A stretch of DNA of 64,000 nucleotides from contig CAVYTU010000015.1 in assembly GCA_963771465.1 (NCBI GenBank), forward strand, positions 1,088,001 to 1,152,000, in the 5' to 3' direction. The translations under genes were made by a program, and so were the position numbers. The notes beneath the pieces were generated by a model. That model had not been told where the DNA came from, did not search any database, and saw only the letters and a program-made list of their open reading frames with translations. How positions within the stretch are numbered: position 1 is the stretch's first letter; every line of letters begins with the position of its first letter. Shown here piece by piece: positions 1 to 32,957 of the stretch. This DNA comes from an uncultured delta proteobacterium. GTDB taxonomy: Bacteria; Desulfobacterota; Binatia; UBA9968.

Positions 1-892
1 ACGTCATGAACAAAGTTGCGCCTTCCCGATTGCCCAATAGCCTCACCTCATCGACGAGAGTTTTGGACAATGTGAAGAATTGTTTAGCGCCGCGATTACT
101 CGATAATGAACTCCGTGGCCGGTCCGTTGGCAGTTCGAGAACCGGAAGATTTTGCAATTGCGCTGACCAGTAGCGAAGCTGCTTTTCCAATTCTTCGCCT
201 TGCAGCCGTCCTCGCTGCCACACGGCGTAGTCGGCGTACTGAATTGGCAATTCGGGGAGCGGGCTTGGCAGACCCTGAACAAACGAGTTGTAAAGCGCAG
301 TCAGCTCGCGCAAAAAAACCCCGCCTGACCATCCGTCGGAAGCGATATGATGCTGCACTTCGACTAGAACATGGGAATGGAGACTCAATCGGACCAGCAT
401 TACGCGTAGCGGCAGGTCCCTGCTAAGATCGAATGGCCTTTCTCTGAGCTCAGCAGCGATTCGCTGCACTTCATCGTGCCGTCGACTTTCAATAACGTCA
501 CTGATGTCGAAGACGAGCAAGTCAACATTCTCGACTGTGCCGATCCGTTGCACGGGTTCTCCACCCTCGATCAGACTGTAGGTGGTACGCAGCACCTCAT
601 GCCTATCGATGATGGCATGGACTGCACTGCGCAGCGCATCAATATCAAGCGGTCCGTCCAAACGAAGCGCCGATCTCTCGTTATAAGCACAACTTTCAGG
701 ATCCAATTGGTTGAGAAACCACAATCGCTGCTGCGCGAACGATAGTGGTGCTGAGTCTCCACGAGCTCGACGCGGGATGGTCAAGTTCTCACCTCGACTG
801 CCACGGCCTTGCTGTAATTTGAGCTCAAGGAGCGCTCGCTTCGCCGGCGAAAGACCCGCAAGACGCTCTGTCAACTTGTCGGTTTCCATCAT
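1..892 (-). CDS. NRPS, N-terminal docking peptide plus condensation domain (partial, runs off left edge)
   Basis: Not in the ORF track. Manual translation from ATG 892 is open to the edge: MMETDKLTERLAGLSPAKRALLELKL...PLSFAQQRLWFLNQL...RHEVLRT...HHIASDGWS...QYADYAVWQR...GATLFMT. ATGA overlap with the upstream gene stop at 889-891. Confidence 0.93.
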   Translation of the reverse strand, partial: MMETDKLTERLAGLSPAKRALLELKLQQGRGSRGENLTIPRRARGDSAPLSFAQQRLWFLNQLDPESCAYNERSALRLDGPLDIDALRSAVHAIIDRHEVLRTTYSLIEGGEPVQRIGTVENVDLLVFDISDVIESRRHDEVQRIAAELRERPFDLSRDLPLRVMLVRLSLHSHVLVEVQHHIASDGWSGGVFLRELTALYNSFVQGLPSPLPELPIQYADYAVWQRGRLQGEELEKQLRYWSAQLQNLPVLELPTDRPRSSLSSNRGAKQFFTLSKTLVDEVRLLGNREGATLFMT

Positions 893-3800
893 TGCTCCGT
901 CTTCGTTAGCCGGTCTTTGTAGCCTTGCTCAGCATCGTCATTAGACATCGATTCTAGCTCCTCCAGAATTCGTTCCATTTCCGTTTCATTCATTTGTCCA
1001 GTCTGCTGCCGGGTTATGACCGTCGCTAAATCTCCTACCGTCGGCGCTTCGAACAGGCTGCGCAATGGAATATCCAATTTGAGAATAGCTCGCATTCGTG
1101 ACACCACCTGCGTAGCAAGTAACGAATGCCCGCCCAACTCAAAAAAGTTGTCGTCCATCCCAACCCTATCCACGCGCAATACTTCCGCCCATATCTCCGC
1201 TATCTTTTCTTCCACCGGCGTTCGCGGCGCAATAAATTCACTGCGTTGAACTGATCCCGGCGCCGGCAATAATCCGCGGTCTACTTTGCCACTCGGAGTT
1301 AACGGCAATTCATCCAACCGCACTAGGGCGGAAGGAATCATATACTCGGGAAGTCTTTGCTTGAGATATTTCCTCACATCCGAAGCGTCGAACGACTGTT
1401 CCCGCCGCGCTACCAAATAAGCCACGAGCCGCTTGTCCCCAGAATGGTCCTCCCGAACCATTGCAATTGCTTCTCGTATCGCCAGATGTTGAGCGAGCGT
1501 CGTCTCGATCTCGCCCAACTCAACCCGATAACCGCGTATCTTTATCTGATGATCTATTCGTCCCAAAAACTCGATGTTCCCATCCGCTAGGTAACGAGCG
1601 TGATCGCCGGTCCGGTACAAGCGCCTGGGCGGCTCCCCGCCCAAGGAGTGATAGATGAATTTCTCCGCCGTCAGCTCGGGCTGGTTTAAGTAACCTCGCG
1701 CCAAACCGTCTCCGCCGATGTGGATCTCACCAACTACACCGATTGGAACCGGTGCTAAATATTGATCGAGAATGTAGATTTGCGTATTCGCAATCGGCCG
1801 GCCTATCGGCACCCAACCTGGTGAATCATTTTCACGACATTCGTAATAGGTTGCGTCAATCGCGGCTTCCGTCGGACCGTACAGATTGATTAACGGCACG
1901 TTTAGCTGCCGACGAAACCGAGTGTTCAGCTCCGCCGATAAAGGCTCGCCACCGCAAAAAACACGGCGCAAACTGCCACACTTCGCCATGTTTTCCTGCA
2001 GCATCATTTTGAGCAATGTGGGCCCTACTTGTAGAATAGTAATTCGTTCGTTCAGCAAAAACTTGGCCAGATATTCAGCGTCCCTATAGCCTTCGGGCCT
2101 CGCCAACACCAATTGTGCGCCGGAGATCAATGGAGCGAAAAACTCCCACACCGAGGCATCAAAACTGAGCGGCGTTCTCTGTGCCACACGATCATCCTGA
2201 GCCAGTGGAAACGCTTCGAGCATCCACATCATGTGATTACAGATCGAGCTATGGGGTATCGCTACCCCCTTCGGGTTTCCAGTTGAACCCGAGGTGTAGA
2301 TCACGTAGGCGATATTGCCATTGTCGGCTTCGCTGGGAAGGTTCGCCGTGCTTTCGCCAGCGACTTTTTGCCATTCCTGGTCTAGGTAAACCGTCTGTCC
2401 GTCATACTTCGGCAGTCGTCGCGACAGCGCTTGGAAGGTCAATAGCACCGCGACCCCGCTATCGTTCAACATGTATCCCAGTCGTGCTTCTGGATAGGTT
2501 GGATCCAACGGCAGGTAGGCTCCACCACTCTTGAGCACTCCCAACAAAGCGATGACCATCTCAAGGGATCGCTCTAGGCACATGCCCACCACAATGTCTG
2601 GTCCAACGCCGAGCTTGCGTAGGTAACGCCCCAGTTGGTTGGCGCGATCGTTCAGTTCTCGGTATGTGAACTGCTGGTCTTCAAAAACAATAGCCACGGC
2701 TCCAGGCGTTCGCTCGACCTGCTCTTCAAACAATTGATGAATACATTTGTTCGAAGGATAATCCCGCTTGGTGTCGTTCCACTCCTCCAAAAGCTGATGC
2801 TTCTCCGGTTCGGTGAGCAACGGTAAGTCACTTATCCGCTGGTTCGGATTGGTCACTATCCCTTCAAGCAAGGTTTGAAAATGGCCAAGCATGCGACACA
2901 CCGTGGTTGAATCAAAAAGCTCCGTGGAGTATTCAAGCTGCCCCTCGAACCCTTCCGTGGTTTCAGTCAAAGCCAAAGTGAGATCAATTTTCGCAGCGCT
3001 TTGGTGAATATTTATCGGGCTAACCACTAACTCCGGCACCGTAAAATCATTTCTAGGATAATTCTGTAATGCGAACATTACTTGAAACAATGGTGACACG
3101 CTCAGAATGCGCTCCGGCCGAAGTTCCTCCACCAGTTTTTCAAACGGCAAGTCCTGATGTGCATAGCTCTGCAGCGCTGTCCGCTTTACCTTGGACAGTA
3201 ACTCGCGAACAGTTGGTTTGCCGGAGAGATCGCTGCGCAATACCAGCGTATTCGCGAAAAATCCAATCAAACCTTCCAATTCCACGTAATTTCGGTTAGC
3301 TATCGGTGATCCAATACAAATGTCCTCCTGGCCACTGTAGCGAGACAGCAATGTTTGAAAAGCCGCTAACAATGTCATGAACAGCGTGACGCCCTCATTG
3401 CGACTCAATCGCTTAATTCCTTGGGTTAGCTCCCTGGAAAGCTTAAATGCGCGTCGGGCTCCTCGATAACTTCGTATTGCGGGCCTAGGCCGATCCGTGG
3501 GTAGCTGTAGCGTGGGCAGATCTTGGAGCTGTTTTTTCCAGTAATCTAACTGGCTCGCTACAATCGTTCCGCTCAACCATTCGCGCTGCCATGCGGCGTA
3601 GTCAGCGTACTGAATCGGTAATTCAGGAAGTGAAACTGATTTTCTTTCCAAAAATGCTTTGTAGAAAACCGCCAACTCGCGCCACAAGATGCCGGAGGAC
3701 CAGCCGTCCGATGCAACGTGGTGCATGACGACGACGAGAACATGGTGATTCAATTCTAAACGCAGTAACCCGGCGCGCAGCATTTGATCTCGCCTCAGAT

Positions 3801-4164
3801 CGAATAGACGCTCCGTCAAATCAGCGATCATTCGCTGCACTCGCCCGTCTCGTTCGCTCTGGGGGCATGCAGATAGGTCGATGATGGCAAGTTCAACAGC
3901 TTGCGGCGGGCCAATCTGCTGAATCGGATTACGGCCTTCGTCCACGATATAGGTTGTTCTTAATACTTCGTGCCGCTCAACGATTGCATCCAGGGCACTC
4001 CTCAGCGCACCCACATCTAATGTTCCATCGAGGCGAAGCGCCCTCGCCATATTGTACGCGCAATTTTCTGGCTCCAGTTGATTTAAGAACCACAGTCGCT
4101 CCTGCGCGAACGATAACGGAACGAACTGTCGATCTGTTTTCCTCGGAATGAATTGTTTCTGCAT
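889..4164 (-). CDS. NRPS module C-A-T, predicted Gln-activating
   Basis: HHVASDGWS; A3 YTSGSTGNPKG; A4 FDASVWE; A5 NLYGPTE; T GGHSL. Pocket read by eye as DAWQFGLIDK, the established Gln signature. ORF is open to 4221, but ATG 4164 avoids overlap with the upstream gene. Confidence 0.92.
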   Translation of the reverse strand: MQKQFIPRKTDRQFVPLSFAQERLWFLNQLEPENCAYNMARALRLDGTLDVGALRSALDAIVERHEVLRTTYIVDEGRNPIQQIGPPQAVELAIIDLSACPQSERDGRVQRMIADLTERLFDLRRDQMLRAGLLRLELNHHVLVVVMHHVASDGWSSGILWRELAVFYKAFLERKSVSLPELPIQYADYAAWQREWLSGTIVASQLDYWKKQLQDLPTLQLPTDRPRPAIRSYRGARRAFKLSRELTQGIKRLSRNEGVTLFMTLLAAFQTLLSRYSGQEDICIGSPIANRNYVELEGLIGFFANTLVLRSDLSGKPTVRELLSKVKRTALQSYAHQDLPFEKLVEELRPERILSVSPLFQVMFALQNYPRNDFTVPELVVSPINIHQSAAKIDLTLALTETTEGFEGQLEYSTELFDSTTVCRMLGHFQTLLEGIVTNPNQRISDLPLLTEPEKHQLLEEWNDTKRDYPSNKCIHQLFEEQVERTPGAVAIVFEDQQFTYRELNDRANQLGRYLRKLGVGPDIVVGMCLERSLEMVIALLGVLKSGGAYLPLDPTYPEARLGYMLNDSGVAVLLTFQALSRRLPKYDGQTVYLDQEWQKVAGESTANLPSEADNGNIAYVIYTSGSTGNPKGVAIPHSSICNHMMWMLEAFPLAQDDRVAQRTPLSFDASVWEFFAPLISGAQLVLARPEGYRDAEYLAKFLLNERITILQVGPTLLKMMLQENMAKCGSLRRVFCGGEPLSAELNTRFRRQLNVPLINLYGPTEAAIDATYYECRENDSPGWVPIGRPIANTQIYILDQYLAPVPIGVVGEIHIGGDGLARGYLNQPELTAEKFIYHSLGGEPPRRLYRTGDHARYLADGNIEFLGRIDHQIKIRGYRVELGEIETTLAQHLAIREAIAMVREDHSGDKRLVAYLVARREQSFDASDVRKYLKQRLPEYMIPSALVRLDELPLTPSGKVDRGLLPAPGSVQRSEFIAPRTPVEEKIAEIWAEVLRVDRVGMDDNFFELGGHSLLATQVVSRMRAILKLDIPLRSLFEAPTVGDLATVITRQQTGQMNETEMERILEELESMSNDDAEQGYKDRLTKTEQ

Positions 4165-4189
4165 AAAGTCTCGCCCCGCAACGGTTTCC

Positions 4190-5824
4190 CTATTCGGTCG
4201 GATAAGCGGCAAAGGGATCAACCGTCACATTGATGCAGGCCGCGCTACCCGAAGCCAAAGATCGTTCCAACGCTGGTTTTAATTGTTCGGGACGCACTAC
4301 ATGTTCGGCATGACCGCCGAAGGCACGCATAATGTTCTCGTAGTGAATGTCGGGTTGAAACATGGTGATCCGCTCCTGGCAATTTGGGAAGAAGGATTTC
4401 TCCATGATCGCACCCGTATTGCCCTCATTGTTGACCACGACGACAATGACGGGAATTCGATGGCGGACGGCCGTCTCCATATCCATAGCGCTCAACGCGA
4501 AACCCATATCGCCGCACACCGCGACAACCATCCGATCTGGCTGAGCGAGTTTCGCGCCGATTGCAAAGGGAACTCCGACTCCCATACAGCCATTACTCCC
4601 CGCGGTAAATCGGGACGCTGGCAAGTAAGCGGGTAAGACCTGCTGTCCAGCAGCCATGGAAACGTTGCCGTCGAGTACACAGATCGCGTCGCGCGGCAGA
4701 AACTCTTTGATCTCCTTGAACATGCGATGTGGTGACATGGGCAGCGCGGCACAACTCATATGCGCGTCCCGTTTGCGTTGTCTACGTTCTCGCTCCGCTT
4801 CGAGTTCTGTGAACCACGGCTGCAAATTCCCTTTCGGCGCGGCATTCATTTTATGCGTCAGACGAGCCAAGATTTTCTGCAGAGCCAACTTTACATCGCC
4901 AACGATTCCGATCGTCGGAGCGCGATTCGCCCCAATCTCACGCTCATGAATATCGATCTGTATCAATTTCGCATCCCGCGCGATCTGTGTACCGAAGCGA
5001 AAAGTCCAATCCAGCCGGGCGCCCAATAACAAAACCACGTCCGCCTTTTGCTGGAGGAGCCCCCGCGCATCGTTAAGACATCGCAGGTGATCGTCCGGCA
5101 AATAGCCCCGGCCCATGGGGGATGTGATAAATGGAATATCAAACTCATCGGCCATCCGTCTTAGTTCCGCGTACGGCTCGGACCAACGAACTCCCTTGCC
5201 GACAATCATGGCTGGCCGCTGCGCGTGCAAGAAAAGCTCGGCCGCCGCCTCTATCTTGCTCTCGTCGAGTTGTGGCATGTCGGCGGATACGACCGCGGAA
5301 TCGTCGGACGACTCACCCATAGCCGTCAAAACGTCCTCAGGCATATCAAGGTACACCGGTCCAGGCCGTCCGCTCATGGCGATTCGGAAGGCCTCTTGGA
5401 TGTGATCTTGAATTTGCGAAGTTTTTTCGACTACTGCGGCCCATTTCGTTATCGAATGAAAAATCGACACTGCGTCTAGCTCTTGAAATGAACCCATGCC
5501 GCGCATACTCAACGGCCGTCTGCCACCCAAGACCACCAACGGCCAACAGTTATCCTTGGCAACAAGAATGCCCGTCGCAGCGTTAGTGATCGCCGGTCCC
5601 GCCGAGAATAGCGCCACCGCGGCGATGCGTCCGATGACGTAGTTCTGGGCGAGCGCCATCAACACGCCAGCTTGTTGATTCCGTACGCCGATCGGACGAA
5701 TACCCAGCTCAGCGCAATTCGAAAAAGTTTCTCTGACGGGTGTGCCCGCTACGCAGTACACATGGGTGACGCCTAAGCCCTTCAAGCTATGCGCCACCAA
5801 TGTATGACCATTGATTCTGGTCAA
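4190..5824 (-). CDS. ThDP-dependent enzyme, oxalyl-CoA decarboxylase / 2-hydroxyacyl-CoA lyase family
   Basis: GSFQELD, SGRPGPVYLDMP, PMGRG, LGARLDW, GSNGCMGVGVPFA and the ThDP motif GDMGF...VNN. Confidence 0.85.
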   Translation of the reverse strand: MTRINGHTLVAHSLKGLGVTHVYCVAGTPVRETFSNCAELGIRPIGVRNQQAGVLMALAQNYVIGRIAAVALFSAGPAITNAATGILVAKDNCWPLVVLGGRRPLSMRGMGSFQELDAVSIFHSITKWAAVVEKTSQIQDHIQEAFRIAMSGRPGPVYLDMPEDVLTAMGESSDDSAVVSADMPQLDESKIEAAAELFLHAQRPAMIVGKGVRWSEPYAELRRMADEFDIPFITSPMGRGYLPDDHLRCLNDARGLLQQKADVVLLLGARLDWTFRFGTQIARDAKLIQIDIHEREIGANRAPTIGIVGDVKLALQKILARLTHKMNAAPKGNLQPWFTELEAERERRQRKRDAHMSCAALPMSPHRMFKEIKEFLPRDAICVLDGNVSMAAGQQVLPAYLPASRFTAGSNGCMGVGVPFAIGAKLAQPDRMVVAVCGDMGFALSAMDMETAVRHRIPVIVVVVNNEGNTGAIMEKSFFPNCQERITMFQPDIHYENIMRAFGGHAEHVVRPEQLKPALERSLASGSAACINVTVDPFAAYPTE

Positions 5825-7701
5825 ACCGGCATTCTCCTTCCTTGGTGAATAATACGGCTCGGCACATCCGTGAGACTCGTGGTCTTTTCATGCGTATTCA
5901 CCGAATCAGCGTCCGTGGCCGCTATAGCGCGCAAAATCTCATGGGCCAACTCTCTGACCGTCGACTGTGAAAAAATCGTCGCTATCGATAGATTTACGTC
6001 AAGCATGGCACGTATTCGCGCAATCACTTGAGTGGCGCGTAAAGAATCTCCACCGAGCGCGAAGAAATTATCCGTCGCACCGACTTGATCAACACCGAGA
6101 ACCTCGGCATAAATTTTCGCCATCGCCGCTTCGAGATCGTTCTGCAGCGTGTCGAACTGTCCTTTGAATTGATCGGCGAATTTTTCCGCCAGCCCAATGC
6201 GCTGGGTTTTGCCGGTGGCACTTTTGGGAATCTCGTCGACGAACAAGATACGGCTTGGGATTTTGTATGCGGCCAGCCGGCCGCTCAGGTATTCACGGAT
6301 TGCAGCTTCAGTTATCTGGTTTTTTTCACGCATGACGACGGCGGCTACAATATCCTCGCCTAGAGTTGAGTGAGTGACAGCAAACGCAATCGCCTGAGAA
6401 ATGTCTGGATGGTCTAAAAGGGCGTCATCGACTTCCCGTGGGGAGATTTTTTCTCCGCCCCGGTTGATGATTTCTTTGAGACGCCCAGTGATGATCAGAT
6501 AACTATCTTTGTCGAGATACCCCTGGTCGCCCGTCCGAAACCAACCCCGTACAAAGCTTTCGGTGTTGGACTCGAAACCGTTAATGTAACCTGCTGTGAC
6601 ATTAGCGCCGTGAATGACGATCTCGCCAATTTCTCCGGGGCATAGGAGGTTACCGGCTTCATCCATGATGGACACGTGCGGTCCCGCCGCCAATCCCACC
6701 GAACCGATCTTGCGCTGACCGGGCGGCAACGGATTGCTCGTCACTTGATGCGCCGCCTCAGTCATTCCGTATGACTCAATTACGGGCACCTCAAATATTT
6801 CCTCCAGACTCTGCAGGACTTGGGCGGGTAGCGCGGAAGATGAAGAGCGGATGAATCTCAGCGAATGTTTCCTAAGCGCCCTAGGATCCGCTCGTGCGCC
6901 CGAGATTACAGCGTGATGAATCGTCGGAACCGCCGTGTACCATGTCGGACGAAAAGCTTCTAACCACGGGAAAAACTGTTCGACGTCGAAGCCGGAAGTG
7001 CAGATGACGCCCGCACCGGCCATTACCGATGAAAGTAGCGCGCCCACAAGTCCATGAATGTGAAACAACGGCATCAGGTTGAGACAGCGATCTGTTTCGC
7101 TCAGCCGCAACGTAGCTGTGATGTTACCCGCTGACGCTAAAAGATTGGCATGAGTCAAGGGAACCATCTTGGGGCGGGAAGTTGTCCCAGAGGTATGTAG
7201 GATCAGCGCGATATCGTCTGCTCGGGAAAAGTCAAAATCTGAATTTTGCGGCTGCCCGATTGCTCTTAGAGCAAAGATACCTGCGGCTGCTTCAGCGTCT
7301 GGAACTAATTCGATGACCGAAATTCCGAACGTTTCAGCTATGGCGAAGGCCGCAGAATTCATGCCCGATTGAACAATCAACGCTTTTGGCTTGAGGTCGG
7401 CAAGATAAAATTCGAATTCATTGCGGCTATAAGCAGGATTCAACGGCGCACAAATCGCGCTGGCGGCGACGCCAAGAAATGCCGCCGCCATCTCTGGACC
7501 ATTGGGCAGCACGATGGCGACTCGGTCGGTCGAGCGGATTCCTTTGGCAATCAACGATCTCACAACGCTATCGACCTGACTGAGCAGGTCACGGTAAGTA
7601 AGAGAGCGTCGGCCCGGCGCGCAAACTGCTACCGCTTCCGGAGCGTGCCTAGCCCGCGCTCTGAGTAGCTCATAGATTGTATGGTATTTTTCGTCGTGCA
7701 T
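5821..7701 (-). CDS. Oxalate-CoA ligase-like (AAE3/PCS60/PanE-type) adenylating enzyme fused to a C-terminal carrier protein
   Basis: HTSGTTSRPKMVPLTHANL, PLFHIHGL, WYTAVPTIH, LRFIRSSSS, YGMTEAAHQVTSNPLPP, INRGGEKISPREVD; C-terminal NFFALGGDSL phosphopantetheine site. Confidence 0.82.
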   Translation of the reverse strand: MHDEKYHTIYELLRARARHAPEAVAVCAPGRRSLTYRDLLSQVDSVVRSLIAKGIRSTDRVAIVLPNGPEMAAAFLGVAASAICAPLNPAYSRNEFEFYLADLKPKALIVQSGMNSAAFAIAETFGISVIELVPDAEAAAGIFALRAIGQPQNSDFDFSRADDIALILHTSGTTSRPKMVPLTHANLLASAGNITATLRLSETDRCLNLMPLFHIHGLVGALLSSVMAGAGVICTSGFDVEQFFPWLEAFRPTWYTAVPTIHHAVISGARADPRALRKHSLRFIRSSSSALPAQVLQSLEEIFEVPVIESYGMTEAAHQVTSNPLPPGQRKIGSVGLAAGPHVSIMDEAGNLLCPGEIGEIVIHGANVTAGYINGFESNTESFVRGWFRTGDQGYLDKDSYLIITGRLKEIINRGGEKISPREVDDALLDHPDISQAIAFAVTHSTLGEDIVAAVVMREKNQITEAAIREYLSGRLAAYKIPSRILFVDEIPKSATGKTQRIGLAEKFADQFKGQFDTLQNDLEAAMAKIYAEVLGVDQVGATDNFFALGGDSLRATQVIARIRAMLDVNLSIATIFSQSTVRELAHEILRAIAATDADSVNTHEKTTSLTDVPSRIIHQGRRMPV

Positions 7702-7713
7702 ATTTTTTCGAAC

Positions 7714-8070
7714 TCAGGACCAACCGTAGCCGGTTGCTTGTTTGAAACCTCCGGCACAAGAAAAATCGATTGACGTCGGCAACAGATTTCTCATGGTGAT
7801 GCCTCTAACTAACCGTTTCCTTGGCGACCGACTGTTCCGCGTGTTTCTCTGCCATCGCCTCGACCTCGCGGAGCATTGCACTAGTTCTGGCCCAGACTTT
7901 CCATGGTCCGGCAAGACGTCTCGATCCAGTTTGCCAGGCGCAACAGGTCTGCTGGTCTTGAAAACTCCTAGCATTGTAGCAATGGCATCAGCCTCGTGAT
8001 CGACCAACGCAGCGACTGGTTCCTTCTTCGCTCCACTCCGGCAGAATTTTAAACGTAACTTGGTTGACAT
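7714..8070 (-). pseudogene. Collapsed remnant of an A-T didomain gene
   Basis: EPVAALVDHEADAIATMLGVFK matches the neighbours' A-domain N-terminal segment (EPIALLFDHDIEVVCAILGVLK). It is almost directly joined to GKLDRDVLPDHGKSGPEL, matching their A10/linker (GKVDRRALPAADKSRPEL). Confidence 0.65.
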
Positions 8071-10055
8071 TATTCATCTTCATCGGCCCGTCCGCTTCGC
8101 GCATTTTCCTGCGCCAGCCGTTTATTAGCTTCTTCATCCGACATCATTTCAATTTCGCTCAACATGCGTTCGAGCTCTTTCTCACCTAGCTGTTTTCCCT
8201 GATGCTCCGCAATCACGGCTGCCATCTCCGCGACCGTGGGCGAGTGAAACAAAGATTGAAGCGGTATCTCCAATTGGAATTGCTTGATGACTTGGGAAAC
8301 CACCCGCATCGCTGCGAGGGAATGACCTCCTAGGTCGAAGAAGTTGTCATGGATGCCGATTTGATCGAGTCCTAATACTTCTGCCCAAATGCTCGCCAAC
8401 AGCTGTTCGACGGGAGTTCTAGACGCGACAAACGGAGTATCGAGTTCCGGCCGACTCTTGTCGGCAGCGGGAAGCGCTCGTCGGTCTACCTTGCCGATTC
8501 CAATCACCGGCAGCTTGTCGAGAAAAACAAATGTCGACGGCACCATATACTCAGCAAGGCTTGCGGCAAGTGCAGTCCGAAGTTGGTTGGCAGTGGGCCC
8601 TGGAACGTTCCGCGCAGCGATGTAAGCCACGAGACGCTTGTCACCGGCGCCGTCCTCAACCGCAATAACCGCTGCTTCTCTCACTGTCTCAAGATTTAGC
8701 AGGGCGGTTTCTATTGCGGCCATCTCGACTTTGTTGCCTCTAATTTTGACTTGAAAATCTTTCCGCCCTAAATACGTGAGGCAGCCACCAGGACTCATCG
8801 TGCCCATGTCGCCGGTATGATAGACGCGTACTTGGTCGTTTAATGAATTTACTTGAAAGGCAGCGCGAGTCCGGTCCGGTTGCTGCCAATACCCCGGAGA
8901 CAAATGACGACTTATCACAACGATTTCGCCGAGCTGGCCAAAACTGACCGGATTGCCGCTTTCGTCGACGAGTTGAATTACTTTGCCTTTATCCGTGTAT
9001 CCCACTGGGACAATGTGATTCGAGATGACGGTCGCTTTGTCCATCAAATATTGACTAGAGTGTCCGGCTTCATTCGGACCATAGCGGTTGACGAATATGC
9101 AGTTGTCGGAGAAATGTTTTTGATAGAGCTCAAAATCGCTCTTGTGTAGCGTCTCGCCGATTACCTTTATCAGGCGCAGGCGGGGAAATTGCTCGTGAGA
9201 AGTCAGCGTGCCCGCGAAGTTGCGAAAGGCCGACGCCACGCAATTGAAAATCGTGATCTCTTCTTCCATCAGCCGACGGCCCAAGCCAGCAAAGCCTTCT
9301 TGCCGGATATCTATTGGGTAAACGACAGCACCATTGAGGAGGGCACGAAGGACATCTCTTCCGGACGAAGCGACAAACGTCAATTTATCCTCGGCACAGA
9401 TATGAAAGTTGTTGGTGTCTTTCATCGTGTGATACAGCAGATTGCGATGATTCTCGGTCACACCTTTCGGCCGACCGGTGGAACCAGAAGTGTAAAATAT
9501 GATAGCAAGCGTATCCGGCGACAGCGGGAGAGATGGACATTTGTCATTCGGGTTATTCCCTAACTCGTCGATATTGAAGCATCGATCATGCCCGGCCAAG
9601 TCATTAGCCAATACGAGACCTGAGTGATCGGTGACAAGAAGACGAGCTTGCAGGTCCTGGAACATGAGCGACAGCTGGGCCGGAGGGAGCGCCGGGTCCA
9701 ACGGCACGCAGATTTTCCCAGCCTTCAGATTCGCTAGCAATGCGGTCACAAACGCAACACCTTTGGGGAAAAGTAAACCGATCGGCTCCGGGGTCTCGCC
9801 GCACCGCACAAGAATAGCTTGAGCGATGCGATTAGCAGCGCGATTTAACTCGGCATAAGTGAGCTGTTCCGTCTTCGACTTGACCGCAATCCGATGGGGA
9901 TACCGCTGCGCAATCTTCTCGAACCGTGCCGGGATCGACTGCTCGACTTCTTCCTTCGGAAACTCCACAAACGTGCCCGACGGGTGAAAACACTTGTCCT
10001 GGATCGCCTGCTGCTCCGGCGGAAGTAAGAAACCTTGATTCGAACAGTCATTCAT
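8070..10055 (-). CDS. Stand-alone non-canonical adenylation-thiolation (A-T) didomain
   Basis: YTSGSTGRPKG, shortened A4 (FVASSGRDV), YGPNE, YHTGD, GRKDFQVKIRG, IGIGKVDR, GGHSL. ATG 10055 sits in an ATGAATGA overlap. Confidence 0.92.
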   Translation of the reverse strand: MNDCSNQGFLLPPEQQAIQDKCFHPSGTFVEFPKEEVEQSIPARFEKIAQRYPHRIAVKSKTEQLTYAELNRAANRIAQAILVRCGETPEPIGLLFPKGVAFVTALLANLKAGKICVPLDPALPPAQLSLMFQDLQARLLVTDHSGLVLANDLAGHDRCFNIDELGNNPNDKCPSLPLSPDTLAIIFYTSGSTGRPKGVTENHRNLLYHTMKDTNNFHICAEDKLTFVASSGRDVLRALLNGAVVYPIDIRQEGFAGLGRRLMEEEITIFNCVASAFRNFAGTLTSHEQFPRLRLIKVIGETLHKSDFELYQKHFSDNCIFVNRYGPNEAGHSSQYLMDKATVISNHIVPVGYTDKGKVIQLVDESGNPVSFGQLGEIVVISRHLSPGYWQQPDRTRAAFQVNSLNDQVRVYHTGDMGTMSPGGCLTYLGRKDFQVKIRGNKVEMAAIETALLNLETVREAAVIAVEDGAGDKRLVAYIAARNVPGPTANQLRTALAASLAEYMVPSTFVFLDKLPVIGIGKVDRRALPAADKSRPELDTPFVASRTPVEQLLASIWAEVLGLDQIGIHDNFFDLGGHSLAAMRVVSQVIKQFQLEIPLQSLFHSPTVAEMAAVIAEHQGKQLGEKELERMLSEIEMMSDEEANKRLAQENARSGRADEDE

Positions 10056-12039
10056 GTCGATCTCCCGTGAAGCTTGGCACGCTTCCCCGAGCAAGCTGTT
10101 TCTGCGCTTCTTCCTCCGTCATGGCTTCTACCTCGCATAGCATCCGCGTCAACTCTGCGTTACTTGCCTGCCTCAATTTGTTCTGCGTGATAATTGCTGC
10201 CATCCAGGCGACTGTAGGTGCATCGAAGAGCGCCTTAACCGGTAGCTCCAGCTGAAATGTTTGGATTACCCTAGCGATCACCCGGGAAGCTGCCAGCGAA
10301 TGACCGCCAAGATCGAAGAAGTTGTCATGGATGCCGATGGGACGGATATCCAAGATTTCTTCCCACACTGCTACTAGCTGCTGTTCAGCTGCATTAGTGG
10401 CCAAGACGTACGCATTGCCGAGGTTAGGGCGTACGCGTTCGGGCCGCGGCAGTGAGCGCCGGTCAAGCTTGCCGTTCGTTTGGGGAAGAGCATCTAGGAA
10501 TTGGAAAGTGGAGGGAATCGCGGATGCTGGGAGCTTATTTCTCAGGAAGTTTGCGATTTCACGCACGGTGAGAACGAAATGTTTTCGAGGAACAACATAG
10601 GCAATAAGTTGCTTCTCACCGTCAACTCTATCCCAGGGAACAACAGCGGTATCCATTACACCGGGATGCTCCATTAACGTCATTTCAATCTCGACGACTG
10701 AAACTCGAAAGCCGCGAATTTTGACGACGAAGTCCTTACGACCAACGTGAATCAAAAAACCGTCACGCGTCGTTCGCCCGAGATCGCCGGTAAGGTAAAT
10801 TGGGGCGCTTGTATTCTTCAAATCCTGAGTTGTCCCGGTTTGCAGTGGAAAAGGAAGGTTCAGATATCGACTCCGAACTGCGATTTCTCCAACCTGCCCC
10901 GCTTCCACTTCATTGCCAATCTCGTCGACTATAAGCACCTCTCTCCCGGGACGGGGATAGCCAACCGGAACGCCACTATCCGGAAGCCTGAAATCCCGGT
11001 CGACAATAAAAGACGAAAATGTATGTGTTTCCGTGGAGCCTATAGAAATCTCGAAGACCGTTGTGGCCGGAAAATGCGCTCTATAAAGGTCTATTTCCAA
11101 CTTGGATACGGGCGCTCCCGATAGATTGATCAAACGTAGCGTGGAAAGATCTATGTCGTCCGAGAGTGATTGCGCGAGCTGGCGAAAAACCAACGGAGTA
11201 GAATGAAAGGCAGTGATTTGCTCTTCATGTAACCATGGCGCAATCCGTATTACTCCCTCTGACTTAATGTCGAAAGGATGGATAGATGCTCCGTTCAGTA
11301 GGGACTGGTAAAGGTTTACGTGTGACGATCCAAAACCAATGCAGTGAAATAGGGTGAGCTTGTCGTCCGCGCGGATGCGATTCACATGACCGTGAACTAT
11401 ACCATTGAAAACAATATTCCTATGCGGACAAACGACACCCTTCGGTTTCCCAGTCGAACCTGATGTATACAGCAGGCATGCCAAGTCCTGTGCGGTCACC
11501 CCGAGATTGAGATTCTCGGAAGGTGTTGATTGAGCGATTTCGTCGATATTCAGCAAAGAAGTCGCATTTAGGACCGTGTCATTCGCCAGCTCCCAATTGT
11601 GGCAATTCGACACGACCATGCCCACGCCAGCGTCCTCTACCATCCGATAATTCTTATCCTGGGGAAACGATGGATCTAATCCTAAGTAGAACTTGCCTGC
11701 CTTCAAAACTCCCAAGATGGCAGGAATCATGTCGATGCCATGTTCAAACAGCAGCGCTATGGGCTCGCTTAGGGCGCCTCGCTTAGCCAAAAGGACGCGT
11801 GCGACGCGGTTGGCAGCACTGTTCAGTTGATCGTAGGTTAACGATCGGTTTTTGTCCTTGACGGCCAATCGGTCCGGATACATGCGCACGATCTTTTCAA
11901 ACCGCGTCGGAATCGATTGCTCAACGTTCTCGATCGGAAACTCGACGAATGCCTCCGACAGATGAGAATACTTGTCCCGGATCACCTGCTGCCCCGGCGA
12001 AAGTTTGAAGCTATGATTGACGGTATCGCTCATATCCAT
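10048..12039 (-). CDS. Stand-alone non-canonical A-T didomain
   Basis: YTSGSTGKPKG, A4 GFGSS (no Asp), GSTET, YLTGD, NGKLDR, GGHSL. Start at 12039 or 12033. Confidence 0.9.
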   Translation of the reverse strand: MDMSDTVNHSFKLSPGQQVIRDKYSHLSEAFVEFPIENVEQSIPTRFEKIVRMYPDRLAVKDKNRSLTYDQLNSAANRVARVLLAKRGALSEPIALLFEHGIDMIPAILGVLKAGKFYLGLDPSFPQDKNYRMVEDAGVGMVVSNCHNWELANDTVLNATSLLNIDEIAQSTPSENLNLGVTAQDLACLLYTSGSTGKPKGVVCPHRNIVFNGIVHGHVNRIRADDKLTLFHCIGFGSSHVNLYQSLLNGASIHPFDIKSEGVIRIAPWLHEEQITAFHSTPLVFRQLAQSLSDDIDLSTLRLINLSGAPVSKLEIDLYRAHFPATTVFEISIGSTETHTFSSFIVDRDFRLPDSGVPVGYPRPGREVLIVDEIGNEVEAGQVGEIAVRSRYLNLPFPLQTGTTQDLKNTSAPIYLTGDLGRTTRDGFLIHVGRKDFVVKIRGFRVSVVEIEMTLMEHPGVMDTAVVPWDRVDGEKQLIAYVVPRKHFVLTVREIANFLRNKLPASAIPSTFQFLDALPQTNGKLDRRSLPRPERVRPNLGNAYVLATNAAEQQLVAVWEEILDIRPIGIHDNFFDLGGHSLAASRVIARVIQTFQLELPVKALFDAPTVAWMAAIITQNKLRQASNAELTRMLCEVEAMTEEEAQKQLARGSVPSFTGDRHE

Positions 12040-12046
12040 CTGGCGT

Positions 12047-14035
12047 TTAGCTTCGCTCGCTTTTCCCAGCAAGCTGTTTCTGCGCTTCCTCCTCGGTCAT
12101 CGCCTCCACCTCACTTAACATGCGATTGAGCGCGTCTTCGCTTGCCTGCTTGGTTTCGTTCTGCATGATGATGGCCGCCATCTCAGCTACCGTCGGCGAT
12201 TCGAAGAGCGCTTTGATCGGCAGCTCAAATCGGAATTGTCTAATGACTTGAGAAACCACCCTTGTCGCAATCAGAGAATGTCCGCCTAGGTCGAAGAAAT
12301 TGTCGTGGATGCCCACACAATCTAGACCAAGGGCCTCCGCCCAAATCCGCTCTAACATTCGCTCATTGAGACTGCCTGGAGCGACATAGGGTTCGGCGAG
12401 CTGCGGTCGCTTCAACTCCGGCACCGGCAACCTCGCACGGTCGACCTTGCCATTCACGAGCGGTAACGAATCCAGAAAAACGTAATTTGATGGGATCATG
12501 TAGTCCGGTATTCTAGTTCTAAGGAATTTATTGATTTCATTGACGGTCGGTGACGGTGAGACATGGGGTACAAGGTACCCAACAAGGGACATCTCACCCC
12601 GCCCTAGATCCCGCGCCACCACTGCAGCATTTTTAACTTTAGCGAATTCGGCTAGTGCGCTTTCAGCTTCGCCAATATTCACACGGTATCCCCGTATCTT
12701 GACCATGTGATCTTTACGACCAAGATGAATCATGAAACCATCAGGCAATATACGGCCAAGATCGCCGGTCATATGGGTTCGCTCTGCGCCACCAGCCGGA
12801 TCAGGAAAATGCCTGTCACGCTCAGGTTGTGACCGTCTCCAGTAGCCTCGTGGCATATATCGGCTCTTAACTACGATCTCACCGACCTCGCCACGCCCTA
12901 CTTCCTTGCCAGCATCGTCGAGTAGGACAACATGTTTGTCTGGTGCTGGATACCCCAGCAAGGTGCCTTCATTGGGAAATTTGAACTTCGCATCGACAAC
13001 GGCGGTACTAATTACCAGTGTCTCGGTTGATCCCATATGTAGTCCTAAAAAACTATCGGACGCGAAAACTTGCCGGTAAAGCTCGAAGTGCTTACGAGTT
13101 ATGGGTGAACCCGATAGATGTACAATCCGAAGATCTGGAAATGAGCCATCATGGGTAAGCAGGTTTGCGAGTTCGCTAAAGACTGCCACGGATAGATGGC
13201 ATACCGTAATCTTCTCTTCTCGAAGCCAACTCGCCAACCGCTTAATCCCATCGGATCTAAGGTCGAAGGGGAATAGCGCCGCGCCGTTCAAAAGCGAGCC
13301 ATACAAATGGATCTCGCCCGATGCGAAACTAACGGAATGTACTAGACTCAATCGATCAGCAGCAGAGATATGGTTTTGACCATTCGTGAAAACCATGACG
13401 TTGTGAAGACGGCAGCGATGCGTTTCGATGACACCTTTGGGGTTACCTGTCGAACCAGAAGTGTAAGTTATCGTTGACAGATCATCAGGCGACACGGCTA
13501 TCTTCGGCTCTTCGAACGGCAATGAGTTGGGCAATTCGTCGATGTTGAGTGTTGCGCGGGTATTGCCGCGCAGTTGCCGAACTAAATATGACTTGCGCTC
13601 ATGGGTCACTATCCATCTGCATTCCGTCTCGTCAAGAATGTATGCGAGTCTTTGAAGCGGAGCCGACGGATCGAGAGCGATGTAAAATTTGCCAGCTTTC
13701 AAAACTCCGAGGATAGCGCAGACGACCTCGATGTCATGATCAAACAAGAGCGCGATGGGTTCGCTTCTCTTGCCGCAACTTTCCAGAATTGCCCACGCAA
13801 TCCGATTCGCTTCCTTGTTCAGTTGGTCATAGGTAAGCGCTCGATTCCCCTTCTTGATCGCGAGCCGATCCGGATACATTCGCACGATCTTCTCAAACCT
13901 CGCCGGGATCGACGTCTCGACGTCTTCGATCGGAAACTCGACGAACGTTCCCGAGGGATGAAAACACTTATCCCGAATCGCCTGCTGTTCGGGCGGCAGT
14001 TGGAAGCCCTGTCTTTGCGCGTCACTCATAACCAT
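12047..14035 (-). CDS. Stand-alone non-canonical A-T didomain
   Basis: YTSGSTGNPKG, A4 SFASG (no Asp), GSTET, MTGD, NGKVDR, GGHSL. Confidence 0.92.
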   Translation of the reverse strand: MVMSDAQRQGFQLPPEQQAIRDKCFHPSGTFVEFPIEDVETSIPARFEKIVRMYPDRLAIKKGNRALTYDQLNKEANRIAWAILESCGKRSEPIALLFDHDIEVVCAILGVLKAGKFYIALDPSAPLQRLAYILDETECRWIVTHERKSYLVRQLRGNTRATLNIDELPNSLPFEEPKIAVSPDDLSTITYTSGSTGNPKGVIETHRCRLHNVMVFTNGQNHISAADRLSLVHSVSFASGEIHLYGSLLNGAALFPFDLRSDGIKRLASWLREEKITVCHLSVAVFSELANLLTHDGSFPDLRIVHLSGSPITRKHFELYRQVFASDSFLGLHMGSTETLVISTAVVDAKFKFPNEGTLLGYPAPDKHVVLLDDAGKEVGRGEVGEIVVKSRYMPRGYWRRSQPERDRHFPDPAGGAERTHMTGDLGRILPDGFMIHLGRKDHMVKIRGYRVNIGEAESALAEFAKVKNAAVVARDLGRGEMSLVGYLVPHVSPSPTVNEINKFLRTRIPDYMIPSNYVFLDSLPLVNGKVDRARLPVPELKRPQLAEPYVAPGSLNERMLERIWAEALGLDCVGIHDNFFDLGGHSLIATRVVSQVIRQFRFELPIKALFESPTVAEMAAIIMQNETKQASEDALNRMLSEVEAMTEEEAQKQLAGKSERS

Positions 14036-14048
14036 CTCTGTTGCGTCA

Positions 14049-23371: not shown

Positions 23372-23372
23372 G

Positions 23373-32427: not shown

Positions 32428-32446
32428 ATCGCTGCCACGAAATAAG

Positions 32447-32489
32447 CGCGCCACTCCGGCTTGGGGATATGGCCGGAGTGGCGTGTTTT
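32447..32489. terminator. Intrinsic terminator hairpin between convergent genes
   Basis: cgcgccactccggc-N11-gccggagtggcgtg followed by tttt. Confidence 0.7.
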
Positions 32490-32494
32490 ACGAG

Positions 32495-32605
32495 TTATCG
32501 AGAATAGTAGCCGTCTCCGTAGTTATTGCGGTGGTGCCGCCAGTGGCAGCCAGATGCCGAGACAACTGCCAATGCCAGGAGAGCCAGCAGTGCAATGGTT
32601 TTCAT
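32495..32605 (-). CDS. Small 36-aa predicted lipoprotein (not in ORF track)
   Basis: MKTIALLALLALAVVSASGC-HWRHHRNNYGDGYYSR; lipobox-like ASG-C; strong AAGGAGG RBS; upstream ECF-type promoter. Confidence 0.75.
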   Translation of the reverse strand: MKTIALLALLALAVVSASGCHWRHHRNNYGDGYYSR

Positions 32606-32685
32606 AATCCCTCCTTTCTACACAGTAATGGCTGCCGCTAAGATCGGCAGCCATCGAGTTTTAACCCGTTGATCGTTCTGTAACT

Positions 32686-32715
32686 TTAGACGCTTGCCAA
32701 GGTAGTTTGTGTCAC
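32686..32715 (-). promoter_or_regulatory. Putative ECF sigma promoter
   Basis: GTGACAC-N16-CGTCTAA; same -10 element as found upstream of the ECF sigma gene. Confidence 0.55.
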
Positions 32716-32957
32716 TTGGGATCAACAATATTTCCTCGCTCAGCGGCAGAAATTTATGTAGTGAACGGTGTGGAGAGAACCAAGTTTGGTCCACTTTCAC
32801 GTGCAAAAGTAAACGCAATGGGAGTAACGATTATTGGATTTCGGCACGCAGAACTGGGAGCGTCGGAATTCTTATCGATTTATTGATCTCGACACAGAAA
32901 CAGTGAGATTTGCACCAAGCGACACCCTACGATTTAGCAATCCATATGGTAGCTCGT

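What the first reader, a model, noticed from the sequence alone, without database searches (positions are those of the whole stretch)
4190..7701. Oxalate-ligase-carrier fusion plus Oxc-like ThDP enzyme inside the NRPS: possible oxalate-derived formyl or oxalyl unit
Seen: an AAE3/PCS60-like ligase fused to a GGDSL carrier domain, overlapping (TTGA) an Oxc/HACL-family gene and directly preceding C-A(Gln)-T. Established: oxalate-CoA ligase plus Oxc convert oxalate to formyl-CoA and CO2, while NRPS formylation normally uses formyl-THF-dependent F domains. Inference: oxalyl-S-carrier is decarboxylated on the carrier to formyl-S-carrier, or condensed with an aldehyde to a 2-hydroxyacyl thioester, and passed to the C domain. 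That would be a folate-independent capping route.
Basis: partly seen in the sequence, partly recalled or inferred. Interest (0 to 1): 0.82.

Follow-up and report, generated by a model that had tools for sequence, protein, structure and literature searches.

The report
Oxalate-ligase carrier plus ThDP loading cassette
An oxalate-type ligase fused to a carrier domain, together with its own unusual thiamine enzyme, forms a widespread but undescribed starter unit for small peptide assembly lines, apparently turning oxalate into a one-carbon or 2-hydroxyacyl cap.

Summary
On the minus strand, 5821-7701 encodes an AAE3/Pcs60-type ligase fused to a carrier (T) domain. It overlaps by TTGA with 4190-5824, an OXC/HACL-family ThDP enzyme, and C-A-T and C-A-T-TE follow.

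The ligase keeps all three oxalate-contacting residues of Arabidopsis AAE3.

The ThDP enzyme is not an Oxc:
- It has the HACL-type Phe-Gln pair.
- It lacks the Oxc tyrosine loop and the C-terminal lid.
- It has lost one CoA-binding arginine.
- Its canonical cofactor-activating Glu is replaced by Gln.

Across 85 related loci these traits track context exactly. All 41 readable copies with a T domain directly upstream have Gln, and all 32 Glu-bearing copies have no T domain upstream. All 29 Gln copies with enough downstream sequence are followed by a C domain. Four proteins fuse ligase, T and ThDP in one chain.

This is therefore a dedicated, carrier-dependent NRPS loading cassette that occurs in many phyla. 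Seven literature searches found no description of it.

The most likely mechanism is that oxalyl-S-T is decarboxylated on ThDP to a C1 carbanion. That carbanion is either added to a carbonyl compound (2-hydroxyacyl cap, my pick) or protonated (formyl cap). The chemistry is inferred, not shown.

The parts
5821..7701 (-). Ligase-carrier fusion (626 aa): AAE3-type acid-adenylating ligase plus T domain
   Evidence: Pfam domains. PDB best hits are oxalate-CoA ligases, E 2e-120. At least 119 of the 120 best homologues also carry PP-binding.
6208..7662 (-). Ligase domain (aa 14-498) with oxalate pocket H214, I215, H216, S287, S288, G312, M313, H318, K498
   Evidence: Alignment to AtAAE3. The AtAAE3 pocket residues come from passages of PMC8905533. 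The signature was compared across 228 ligases.
5938..6120 (-). Carrier (T) domain, aa 528-588, GGDSL serine motif
   Evidence: PP-binding E 4.6e-15; sequence.
4190..5824 (-). ThDP enzyme (544 aa), carrier-linked subfamily of the OXC/HACL family. Key features: Q50, F113-Q114, Q394, GD..NN motif kept, 9-residue C-terminal tail.
889..4164 (-). NRPS module 1, C-A-T (HHVASDG motif present). Likely ATG at 4164; the ORF listing gives a TTG at 4221.
   Evidence: Hand-mapped A-domain code DAWQFGLIDK.
2..892 (-). Start of NRPS module 2, C-A-T-TE, which runs out of the window into L090:16741-19998
   Evidence: Hand-mapped code DAFWLGGTFK.
7702..8069 (.). Gap between the upstream A-T gene and the ligase gene. 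The 118-aa ORF called here is probably not a gene.
   Evidence: No Pfam or NCBIfam hit. No tblastn relative in the 160 loci searched apart from one 39-residue match at E 0.001. No promoter-like site found.

Best explanation
This is a dedicated NRPS loading cassette made of three parts: ligase, T domain and ThDP enzyme.

1. The ligase adenylates oxalate and places it on its own T domain as oxalyl-S-phosphopantetheine. This step is inferred from the conserved oxalate pocket.
2. The ThDP enzyme docks on that T domain instead of binding CoA. This is inferred from strict gene linkage, the fusion proteins, and the loss of the lid and of a CoA-binding arginine.
3. The ThDP enzyme adds ThDP to the thioester carbonyl and releases CO2. 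This leaves the ThDP-bound hydroxymethyl-thioester carbanion that OXC and HACL enzymes share (inferred from family chemistry).
4. The site is HACL-type and has no Oxc proton relay. My pick is therefore that the carbanion is added to an aldehyde or ketone to give a 2-hydroxyacyl-S-T, with the CO2 loss driving the reaction (inference). The acceptor is unknown.
5. The C domain of module 1 transfers the cap to the first amino acid, probably Gln. Module 2 adds a second residue, probably Val. The TE releases a capped dipeptide.

I put steps 1-3 together at about 0.6, and the 2-hydroxyacyl outcome at about 0.35 absolute.
For: Ligase:
- E 2e-120 to AtAAE3, and S289/H319/K500 are kept as S288/H318/K498. 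[quoted passage not shown]
- The 9-residue pocket signature is the same in carrier-fused and free-standing ligases, whatever lies downstream.

Linkage (85 ThDP loci):
- 42 have a T domain within 700 nt upstream. 41 of these have Gln at position 50; the other is unreadable.
- 33 have upstream sequence but no T domain. 32 of these have Glu and 1 has Leu.
- All 29 Gln copies with at least 900 nt downstream have a C domain within 1800 nt.

Fusions: P0245, P0246 and P0248 (about 1145 aa) and the N-terminally truncated P0247 carry ligase, PP-binding and TPP N/M/C domains in one chain. P0245 is 50% identical to the ligase-carrier protein and 45% identical to the ThDP enzyme.

Loss of CoA features:
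- E. coli OXC R403 (ApbHACL/S R400, a CoA-binding residue according to PMC11271303 section 8) is Gln in 36 of 42 linked copies and Arg in 32 of 32 free ones.
- The C-terminal tail has a median of 9 residues in linked copies, against 19-24 in free ones.

Active site:
- F113-Q114 is present in 120 of 120. OXC has Tyr-Glu there.
- Replacing OXC relay residues raises carboligation at the expense of formyl-CoA release (PMC8411744 and PMC7154664 passages).
- The GD..NN cofactor motif and most active-site residues are invariant. This argues for a working enzyme.

Evolution and context:
- The linked copies form one side of a branch with SH-aLRT 100.
- Free relatives sit beside family III CoA-transferases in 2 of the 5 loci examined.
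Against: - No biochemistry exists for any member.
- Human HACL1, which also has Phe-Gln, barely decarboxylates oxalyl-CoA (kcat below 1 per min; PMC7154664).
- Gln in place of the cofactor-activating Glu should slow ylide formation.
- No gene for making an aldehyde acceptor is conserved next to the cassette.
- HACL-type sites can protonate the carbanion through water (PMC13327070 passage), so a formyl cap is not excluded.
- Post-ThDP C domains do not form their own clade apart from elongation C domains (FastTree, supports not assessed).
- A gene that could supply oxalate (PEP-mutase/ICL family) lies beside the ligase in only 3 of 35 fused loci, and none lies near this window.
- NCBIfam cut-offs are not reached for any named family.
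Confidence: 0.35

Rival explanations
1. Formyl cap. The same cassette and the same decarboxylation, but the carbanion is simply protonated. Formyl-S-T is then passed to the C domain and gives an N-formyl dipeptide, a folate-independent formylation route.
For: - It needs no extra substrate, and no acceptor-supplying gene is conserved.
- HACL enzymes with Phe-Gln release formyl-CoA using a bound water (PMC13327070 passage; PMC11271303 section 8).
- A formyl group on a carrier is a competent assembly-line starter in lactacystin biosynthesis (PMC11730586 passages).
Against: - An Oxc-type enzyme would be the obvious recruit for this job, yet all four Oxc relay residues are absent.
- Human HACL1 is a very poor oxalyl-CoA decarboxylase.
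- Loss of relay residues in OXC lowers formyl-CoA release.
Confidence: 0.3
2. A different acid or different chemistry. The ligase loads another very small polar acid (glyoxylate, glycolate, formate or malonate). The ThDP enzyme then does something other than oxalyl decarboxylation, for example lyase cleavage of a tethered 2-hydroxy acid.
For: - NCBIfam cut-offs are not reached: the FadD7 family scores 425 bits against 650.
- Pocket residues differ from AtAAE3 at V215I, C288S and A313G.
- The ThDP enzyme is HACL-type.
Against: - The three residues that contact oxalate are conserved.
- The pocket signature equals that of free-standing ligases of the same family.
- The malonyl-CoA synthetase family is far more distant, at 1e-63 against 2e-120.
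Confidence: 0.15
3. The ThDP enzyme acts as a C-C-forming condensation catalyst. The C1 carbanion attacks an acyl thioester carried by one of the C-less A-T didomain proteins. This gives a 2-oxoacyl-S-T and, after the C domain acts, an alpha-ketoamide.
For: - Seven A-T genes with no C domain and no Asp235 lie upstream.
- Similar C-less, non-Asp A-T genes lie beside the cassette in L096, L097, L099, L105, L109, L117, L122, L123/L124 and L137.
- The missing lid would leave room for a second carrier (inference).
Against: - I know of no ThDP enzyme that uses a thioester as acceptor (recalled, not searched).
- Cassettes in L101, L126, L102, L011, L020, L022 and L163 have no such A-T gene within the sequence held.
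- The upstream array is separated by a gap, and in the syntenic locus L101 it is absent.
Confidence: 0.08
4. The ThDP protein is catalytically dead. It serves as a scaffold or gatekeeper, and the cap is plain oxalyl.
For: - The canonical Glu is Gln in 119 of 120.
- Many ligase-carrier loading units feed a C domain with no ThDP enzyme at all: 16 of 35 fused genome loci.
Against: - The GD..NN motif, F113, Q114 and many active-site residues are invariant over more than 100 clusters at 61-83% identity.
- Gln itself is fixed rather than drifting.
- Glyoxylate carboligase works without this Glu (recalled, not checked here).
Confidence: 0.07
5. An ordinary CoA-level oxalate-catabolic pair (oxalyl-CoA synthetase plus decarboxylase) that merely lies beside NRPS genes.
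For: Both proteins belong to the families that carry out this pathway.
Against: - The ligase is fused to a carrier domain.
- The ThDP subfamily is never seen without that carrier domain upstream.
- It is fused to it in four proteins.
- The Oxc catalytic residues are absent.
Confidence: 0.03

Closest known systems
Oxalate-CoA ligase (AtAAE3, yeast Pcs60, Lathyrus OCS, M. extorquens OXS)
   Same: Same ANL family, with E 2e-120 to AtAAE3. The oxalate-contacting Ser, His and Lys are conserved.
   Different: Here the acceptor thiol is a fused carrier domain rather than free CoA. The protein is a loading unit of an NRPS, not a catabolic enzyme. Oxalate use has not been assayed.
Oxalyl-CoA decarboxylase (O. 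formigenes, E. coli, M. extorquens OXC)
   Same: Same three-domain ThDP fold and family. The ADP-site arginines (E. coli OXC R158 and R280) and one CoA-binding arginine (R264) are kept.
   Different: Tyr-Glu is replaced by Phe-Gln. The Tyr loop is deleted. The C-terminal lid carrying Ser/Arg is missing. The canonical Glu is Gln. R403 is Gln. This enzyme is not an OXC.
2-Hydroxyacyl-CoA lyase/synthase (ApbHACL/S, TbHACL/S, RuHACL; PMC11271303)
   Same: These are the best solved matches (5e-99). It shares the Phe-Gln pair and the overall active-site floor. Its nearest free-standing relatives look like ordinary HACLs and sit beside CoA-transferases.
   Different: The lid residues that contact acyl-CoA are missing, as are the second CoA arginine and the cofactor-activating Glu. 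It is always coupled to a carrier domain and a C domain.
Engineered OXS-OXC-thioesterase cascade (Burgener et al. 2020, PMC7154664)
   Same: Same proposed logic: oxalate is activated as a thioester, decarboxylated on ThDP, and the C1 unit is added to an aldehyde to give a 2-hydroxyacyl thioester.
   Different: The cascade is man-made, runs on CoA and uses an OXC mutant. Here a natural, carrier-tethered version is inferred but not shown.
Formyl starters in assembly lines: F domains (linear gramicidin, recalled) and LctF/LctA-AT1 formyl-ACP in lactacystin (PMC11730586)
   Same: A C1 acyl group on a carrier is used as a chain starter.
   Different: Those routes take formyl from 10-formyl-tetrahydrofolate. 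Here the C1 unit would come from oxalate by a ThDP enzyme.
Glyoxylate carboligase (recalled; no call)
   Same: A ThDP carboligase of the same superfamily that lacks the canonical Glu (Val in its place).
   Different: It acts on free glyoxylate and involves no thioester or carrier. The comparison rests on memory only.

Membership tests
AAE3-type oxalate-CoA ligase | ANL fold: AMP-binding plus the C-terminal subdomain with the catalytic Lys | tested here: met
   Pfam E 4.2e-75 and 5.2e-16. K498 aligns with AtAAE3 K500.
AAE3-type oxalate-CoA ligase | Oxalate-contacting Ser289 and His319, said to be specific to oxalyl-CoA synthetases (PMC8905533 passage) | tested here: met
   S288 and H318. S288 is invariant and H318 is at least 90% conserved in 29 fused homologues.
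AAE3-type oxalate-CoA ligase | Free CoA as the thiol acceptor | tested here: not met
   A PP-binding domain is fused at aa 528-588. The same is true in 119 of the 120 best homologues. Acceptor use itself was not assayed.
AAE3-type oxalate-CoA ligase | Oxalate-dependent adenylation | not testable with these tools
   This needs an enzyme assay.
Oxalyl-CoA decarboxylase (OXC) | Proton-relay residues Tyr-Glu (Of Y120/E121), Tyr (Of Y483) and Ser (Of S553); roles taken from PMC8411744 passages | tested here: not met
   F113-Q114 replaces Tyr-Glu. A 3-residue deletion removes the Tyr. The tail ends 9 residues after D536.
Oxalyl-CoA decarboxylase (OXC) | NCBIfam equivalog score | tested here: not met
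   PRK09259 scores 342 bits against a cut-off of 557. TIGR03254 scores 314.5 against 739.4.
HACL/HACS | Phe-Gln pair, where the Gln binds the thioester carbonyl oxygen | tested here: met
   F113 and Q114 are present in 120 of 120. The role is taken from PMC13327070 and PMC11271303.
HACL/HACS | Canonical cofactor-activating Glu (E50/E54) | tested here: not met
   Q50 in 119 of 120. It is Q in 41 of 41 readable carrier-linked loci.
HACL/HACS | Acyl-CoA-binding arginines (Apb R260 and R400) and C-terminal lid residues | tested here: not met
   R254 is kept (111 of 120), but R400 is Q394 (115 of 120), and the lid is reduced to a 9-residue tail.
ThDP-dependent enzyme (POX/ALS superfamily) | Three domains and the GD..NN Mg-diphosphate motif | tested here: met
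   Pfam N, M and C domains. D439 is present in 120 of 120, N465 in 119 and N466 in 120.
NRPS loading module | An adenylating enzyme plus a carrier with the Ser motif, followed by a C domain with HHxxxDG | tested here: met
   GGDSL and HHVASDG in P0003. A C domain follows in 29 of 29 evaluable Gln-type loci.

The most novel reading that the evidence does not exclude
The Gln-type ThDP enzyme is a new in-line NRPS domain that forms carbon-carbon bonds on carrier-bound substrates. It would use oxalate as a decarboxylation-driven C1 nucleophile, making it a natural, carrier-tethered counterpart of engineered formyl-CoA elongation. In BGCs such as this one, the C-less A-T didomain proteins that lack Asp235 would supply the acyl partner. 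The cassette would then build 2-oxoacyl or 2-hydroxyacyl warheads (alpha-ketoamide-type caps) combinatorially.
Probability: 0.1. Interest if true: 0.95.

Novelty: new variant of a known kind. Interest (0 to 1): 0.8.

Why it matters
If the mechanism holds, NRPS systems have a folate-independent way to install a C1-derived cap from oxalate, using a ThDP enzyme that works on carrier-bound thioesters. No OXC/HACL-family enzyme has been reported to act on a carrier protein in the papers I could search. The cassette is compact, found in many phyla and easy to recognise, so it offers:
- a genome-mining handle for a whole class of unknown capped peptides;
- a natural template for carrier-tethered one-carbon elongation, which is currently being engineered with CoA enzymes;
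- a new case for studying how a ThDP enzyme works without its canonical glutamate.

The sister architectures point to oxalyl-capped peptides and sugars that have not been described. These are ligase-T feeding a C domain directly, ligase-T-TE, and ligase-T with a hexapeptide acyltransferase and sugar genes.

Tried and rejected
- **Complex prediction.** Complex prediction was run on the T domain (aa 515-600, alignment A1) with one copy of the ThDP enzyme (alignment A2). A ThDP dimer, where the active site lies, exceeded the size limit.
- **Earlier findings.** The search of earlier findings was not open.
- **The 118-aa ORF at 7714-8070.** It has no family hit and no relative in the loci searched, so I treat it as spurious.
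- **An oxalate source next to the cassette.** PEP-mutase/ICL-family genes are adjacent only in L003, L022 and as a fragment in L010. That is 3 of 35 fused loci. None lies near this window among the genome's 10 hits. Their best solved matches are petal death protein and methylisocitrate lyase; oxaloacetate acetylhydrolase scores 2e-25 to 6e-28. This is too weak to use.
- **C-domain subtype as a clue to the donor.** Post-ThDP, post-ligase and elongation C domains intermix by lineage (FastTree, supports not assessed). This gave no signal.
- **First-residue specificity.** The A-domain code after the cassette varies among 19 ThDP-linked loci, so there is no conserved product core.
- **Carbanion-protonating Glu.** I tried to locate a homologue of AcHACL E493 by sequence. 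The NN[E/D/Q]G stretch could not be placed with confidence without coordinates.
- **Literature.** Seven searches found no paper describing this cassette. The megapolipeptin and fusadapamide hits were unrelated. Supplements were not available.


Full report
**What is there**

All relevant genes are on the minus strand.
- 5821-7701 encodes a 626-aa protein with AMP-binding, AMP-binding_C and PP-binding domains.
- 4190-5824 encodes a 544-aa protein with the three ThDP-enzyme domains.
- 889-4221 encodes C-A-T, and 2-892 starts another C domain.
- The ligase stop codon and the TTG start of the ThDP gene share TTGA.
- The C-A-T gene most likely starts at the ATG at 4164, 25 nt after the ThDP stop.

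Fetching the genome upstream of the window (window = G000:C15:1088001-1152000) shows that the last NRPS gene is C-A-T-TE. It is followed by unrelated aminotransferase, dethiobiotin-synthase-like and RadA-like genes.

The unit is therefore ligase-T | ThDP | C-A-T | C-A-T-TE, a line that should make a capped dipeptide. Hand-mapped specificity positions give DAWQFGLIDK and DAFWLGGTFK. I recall these as Gln and Val codes, but no predictor was run.

**The ligase**

Its best solved relatives are the three oxalate-CoA ligases: AtAAE3 (2e-120), Pcs60 (1.3e-117) and Lathyrus OCS (1.5e-117). Malonyl-CoA synthetase follows at 1e-63.

Passages of PMC8905533 give the AtAAE3 oxalate pocket as V215-H216, C288-S289, A313-M314, H319 and K500. 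S289, H319 and K500 touch the substrate, and S289 and H319 are conserved only in oxalyl-CoA synthetases. In the printed alignment these map to I215-H216, S287-S288, G312-M313, H318 and K498, so all three contact residues are kept.

I compared the 9-residue signature (HIHSSGMHK here) across 228 ligases. It is the commonest form in every context:

| Context | Exact matches |
|---|---|
| ThDP-linked | 17 of 29 |
| Ligase-T followed by C | 13 of 18 |
| Ligase-T-TE | 5 of 7 |
| With hexapeptide transferase | 3 of 4 |
| Mostly free-standing ligases ('other/standalone' group) | 34 of 49 |
| Protein-search set | 89 of 120 |

Most of the remainder differ only at the Cys/Ser/Ala, Val/Ile or Gly/Ala positions. 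The acid is therefore very probably the same in all of them, and oxalate is the best candidate. No NCBIfam cut-off is reached; the best is the FadD7 family at 425 bits against 650.

**The ligase-T fusion is a large family**

- Of the 120 best homologues (55-84% identity), 119 carry PP-binding. In addition, 8 carry a thioesterase, 5 a C domain and 2 a hexapeptide-transferase domain.
- A scan of species genomes returned 80 loci from many phyla, 35 of them with the fused T domain.
- What follows the fusion in those 35 loci:

| Downstream partner | Loci |
|---|---|
| C domain (same or next protein) | 16 |
| Fused TE | 7 |
| Hexapeptide acyltransferase, with glycosyltransferase and aminotransferase genes around | 4 |
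| ThDP enzyme and then a C domain | 5 (in L004 the contig ends inside the ThDP gene) |
| Something else | 3 |

**The ThDP enzyme is HACL-like, not Oxc-like, and is a special subfamily**

Its best solved matches are ApbHACL/S entries (5e-99) and RuHACL (3e-95). E. coli and O. formigenes OXC score 1.9e-68 and 1.9e-60.

I aligned it with its 119 best homologues (61-83% identity) and with E. coli OXC fetched from K-12. The results are:
- The OXC Tyr-Glu pair is Phe-Gln in 120 of 120.
- The canonical cofactor-activating Glu (E. coli OXC E54) is Gln in 119 of 120, with one gap.
- E. coli OXC R403 is Gln in 115 of 120.
- R158, R264 and R280 are kept.
- The GD..NN motif is kept.
- Three residues that include the OXC Tyr are deleted.
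- The protein ends 9 residues after D536, with a conserved DPxAPYPxD tail. E. coli OXC has 22 residues there.

The literature gives these positions their meaning:
- Tyr-Glu, Tyr and Ser form the OXC proton relay. Replacing them trades decarboxylation and formyl-CoA release for carboligation (PMC8411744 and PMC7154664 passages).
- Phe-Gln is the HACL state.
- R260 and R400 bind acyl-CoA, and the C-terminal peptide closes over it (PMC11271303 section 8).

**The derived traits track the carrier domain exactly**

A metagenome scan with the subfamily profile gave 80 loci. I analysed these with the 5 genome loci, 85 in all.

| Context | Loci | Position 50 | Position 394 | C-terminal tail |
|---|---|---|---|---|
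| T domain within 700 nt upstream | 42 | Gln in 41, unreadable in 1 | Gln in 36, plus 1 in the unreadable row | Median 9 residues; at most 11 in 31 of 35 |
| At least 400 nt upstream, no T domain | 33 | Glu in 32, Leu in 1 (partial match) | Arg in all 32 Glu copies (no residue aligned in the partial Leu copy) | 19-24 residues |
| Too little upstream sequence | 10 | not evaluable | | |

- All 29 Gln-type loci with at least 900 nt downstream have a C domain within 1800 nt.
- Both groups have Phe-Gln.
- In a quick maximum-likelihood tree of 43 rows, the linked group is one side of a branch with SH-aLRT 100 and a stem of 0.94.
- Caveats on that tree: three partial rows were dropped; 12 rows from the protein search were assigned to the linked group by similarity rather than by context; and only 17 of the 33 free loci were used.
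- Free relatives sit beside family III CoA-transferases in 2 of the 5 loci examined, and beside an enoyl-CoA hydratase in one. That is an ordinary CoA-dependent setting.
- Caveat on the scan: it used motifs taken from the subfamily, so the free group is only the part of the family that shares those motifs.

**Fusions**

A search restricted to longer proteins found three proteins of 1142-1149 aa and one N-terminally truncated protein of 982 aa. Each has AMP-binding, PP-binding and TPP N/M/C domains in that order. P0245 is 50% identical to the ligase-T protein over 600 residues and 45% identical to the ThDP enzyme over 545 residues. It keeps Gln at the Glu position and the short tail.

**Reading**

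Linkage, fusion, and the loss of the lid and of a CoA arginine together argue that this enzyme works on the thioester held by the ligase's own T domain and hands the result to the next C domain. The ligase pocket argues that the thioester is oxalyl. By family chemistry, ThDP addition and CO2 loss would give the C1 carbanion common to OXC and HACL.

What happens next is open.
- For carboligation to a 2-hydroxyacyl cap: the site is HACL-type, the OXC proton relay is absent, and a decarboxylative donor makes the addition irreversible.
- For plain protonation to formyl: HACL sites protonate the carbanion through water, and no acceptor-supplying gene is conserved nearby.
- Against efficient turnover in either case: human HACL1 hardly decarboxylates oxalyl-CoA, and the Glu-to-Gln change should slow cofactor activation.
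- Against a dead enzyme: the fixed Gln and the invariant cofactor motif.

My estimates are 0.35 for 2-hydroxyacyl, 0.30 for formyl, 0.15 for another acid or other chemistry, 0.08 for 2-oxoacyl formation with a thioester acceptor, 0.07 for an inactive protein and 0.03 for a CoA-level catabolic pair.

**Distribution**

In the window's own genus the ThDP gene was found in 2 of 18 other genomes. One of these, G005, is unpublished, so this count rests partly on it. It was found in 0 of 12 genomes from other families of the order. This patchiness fits an accessory BGC.

Locus L101 is syntenic with the window: ECF sigma factor, anti-sigma factor, amidohydrolase, then ligase-T | ThDP | C-A-T. It has no A-T array. 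The cassette plus one module is therefore the minimal unit.

**Novelty**

Seven full-text searches found no paper describing an oxalate-type ligase-carrier fusion or an OXC/HACL enzyme inside an NRPS. Subscription journals and supplements were not covered.

The closest known cases are:
- the CoA-level oxalate pathway;
- HACL/HACS enzymes;
- the engineered OXS-OXC-thioesterase cascade;
- folate-dependent formyl starters such as LctF/LctA in lactacystin.

Noticed in passing
window 8070-25403 (-): genes 8070-10094, 10048-12072, 12047-14035, 17411-19390, 19387-21417, 21371-23371, 23373-25403: Seven tandem A-T didomain genes of about 660-676 aa with no C domain, 40-58% identical to one another. They keep the A3, A7, A8 and A10 motifs. 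However, the alpha-amino-binding Asp235 (FDxS) is replaced by Ser, Arg, Gly or Ala or lost in a gap, and YGPTE is altered in most of them, commonly to [LI]G[ST]TET. The predicted pockets are rich in His, Arg, Lys and Ser. Across all loci, 54 of 56 A domains with a C domain upstream have Asp, while 19 of 25 C-less ones lack it. Similar genes flank the cassette in about ten metagenome loci and in L009 and L023. Their substrates and their condensation partner are unknown.
   Followed up: partly
L003, L025, L046, L058; L005, L015, L018, L028, L039, L043, L074: The same ligase-T fusion occurs with a hexapeptide acyltransferase among glycosyltransferase, DegT-aminotransferase and UDP-sugar dehydrogenase genes. 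This may indicate oxalyl transfer to an amino sugar. It also occurs as a ligase-T-thioesterase tridomain protein of 839-896 aa with no NRPS nearby.
   Followed up: partly
L012:4179-8693: In a Ktedonobacteraceae MAG the ligase-T gene is followed directly by a lantibiotic-dehydratase-N-like protein (869 aa) and a gamma-glutamyltranspeptidase.
   Followed up: no
L022:3469-4470; L003:4882-5739 and 8502-9344; L010:11076-11426: PEP-mutase/isocitrate-lyase-family genes lie directly beside the ligase-T gene. The best solved matches are petal death protein and methylisocitrate lyase; oxaloacetate acetylhydrolase scores 2e-25 to 6e-28. They could supply oxalate, but they are present in only 3 of 35 fused loci.
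   Followed up: partly
L020:9369-9971; L072:9213-9812: In the two Nitrospirota loci the gene just upstream of the cassette fuses an MbtH-like domain to a region matching the eukaryotic CBF-beta family (E 1e-7 and 3e-6).
   Followed up: no
L011:13557-16666; L009:10044-12719: Two consecutive C domains follow the loading unit. In L011 the first is a stand-alone 544-aa C protein.
   Followed up: no
window 54243-57437 (+): A 1064-aa ORF with no Pfam hit lies in a stretch with very strong AT skew (0.27-0.28 over 54-58 kb). Two KaiC-like ATPase genes follow at 57534-59069.
   Followed up: no
window 36574-40893 (-): A run of genes matching the CofC, CofD, F420-0:gamma-glutamyl ligase and F420-dependent NADP oxidoreductase families, plus a radical-SAM gene. 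This suggests coenzyme F420 biosynthesis. An ECF sigma/anti-sigma pair and an amidohydrolase at 31309-34388 border the NRPS region, as they do in the syntenic locus L101.
   Followed up: no
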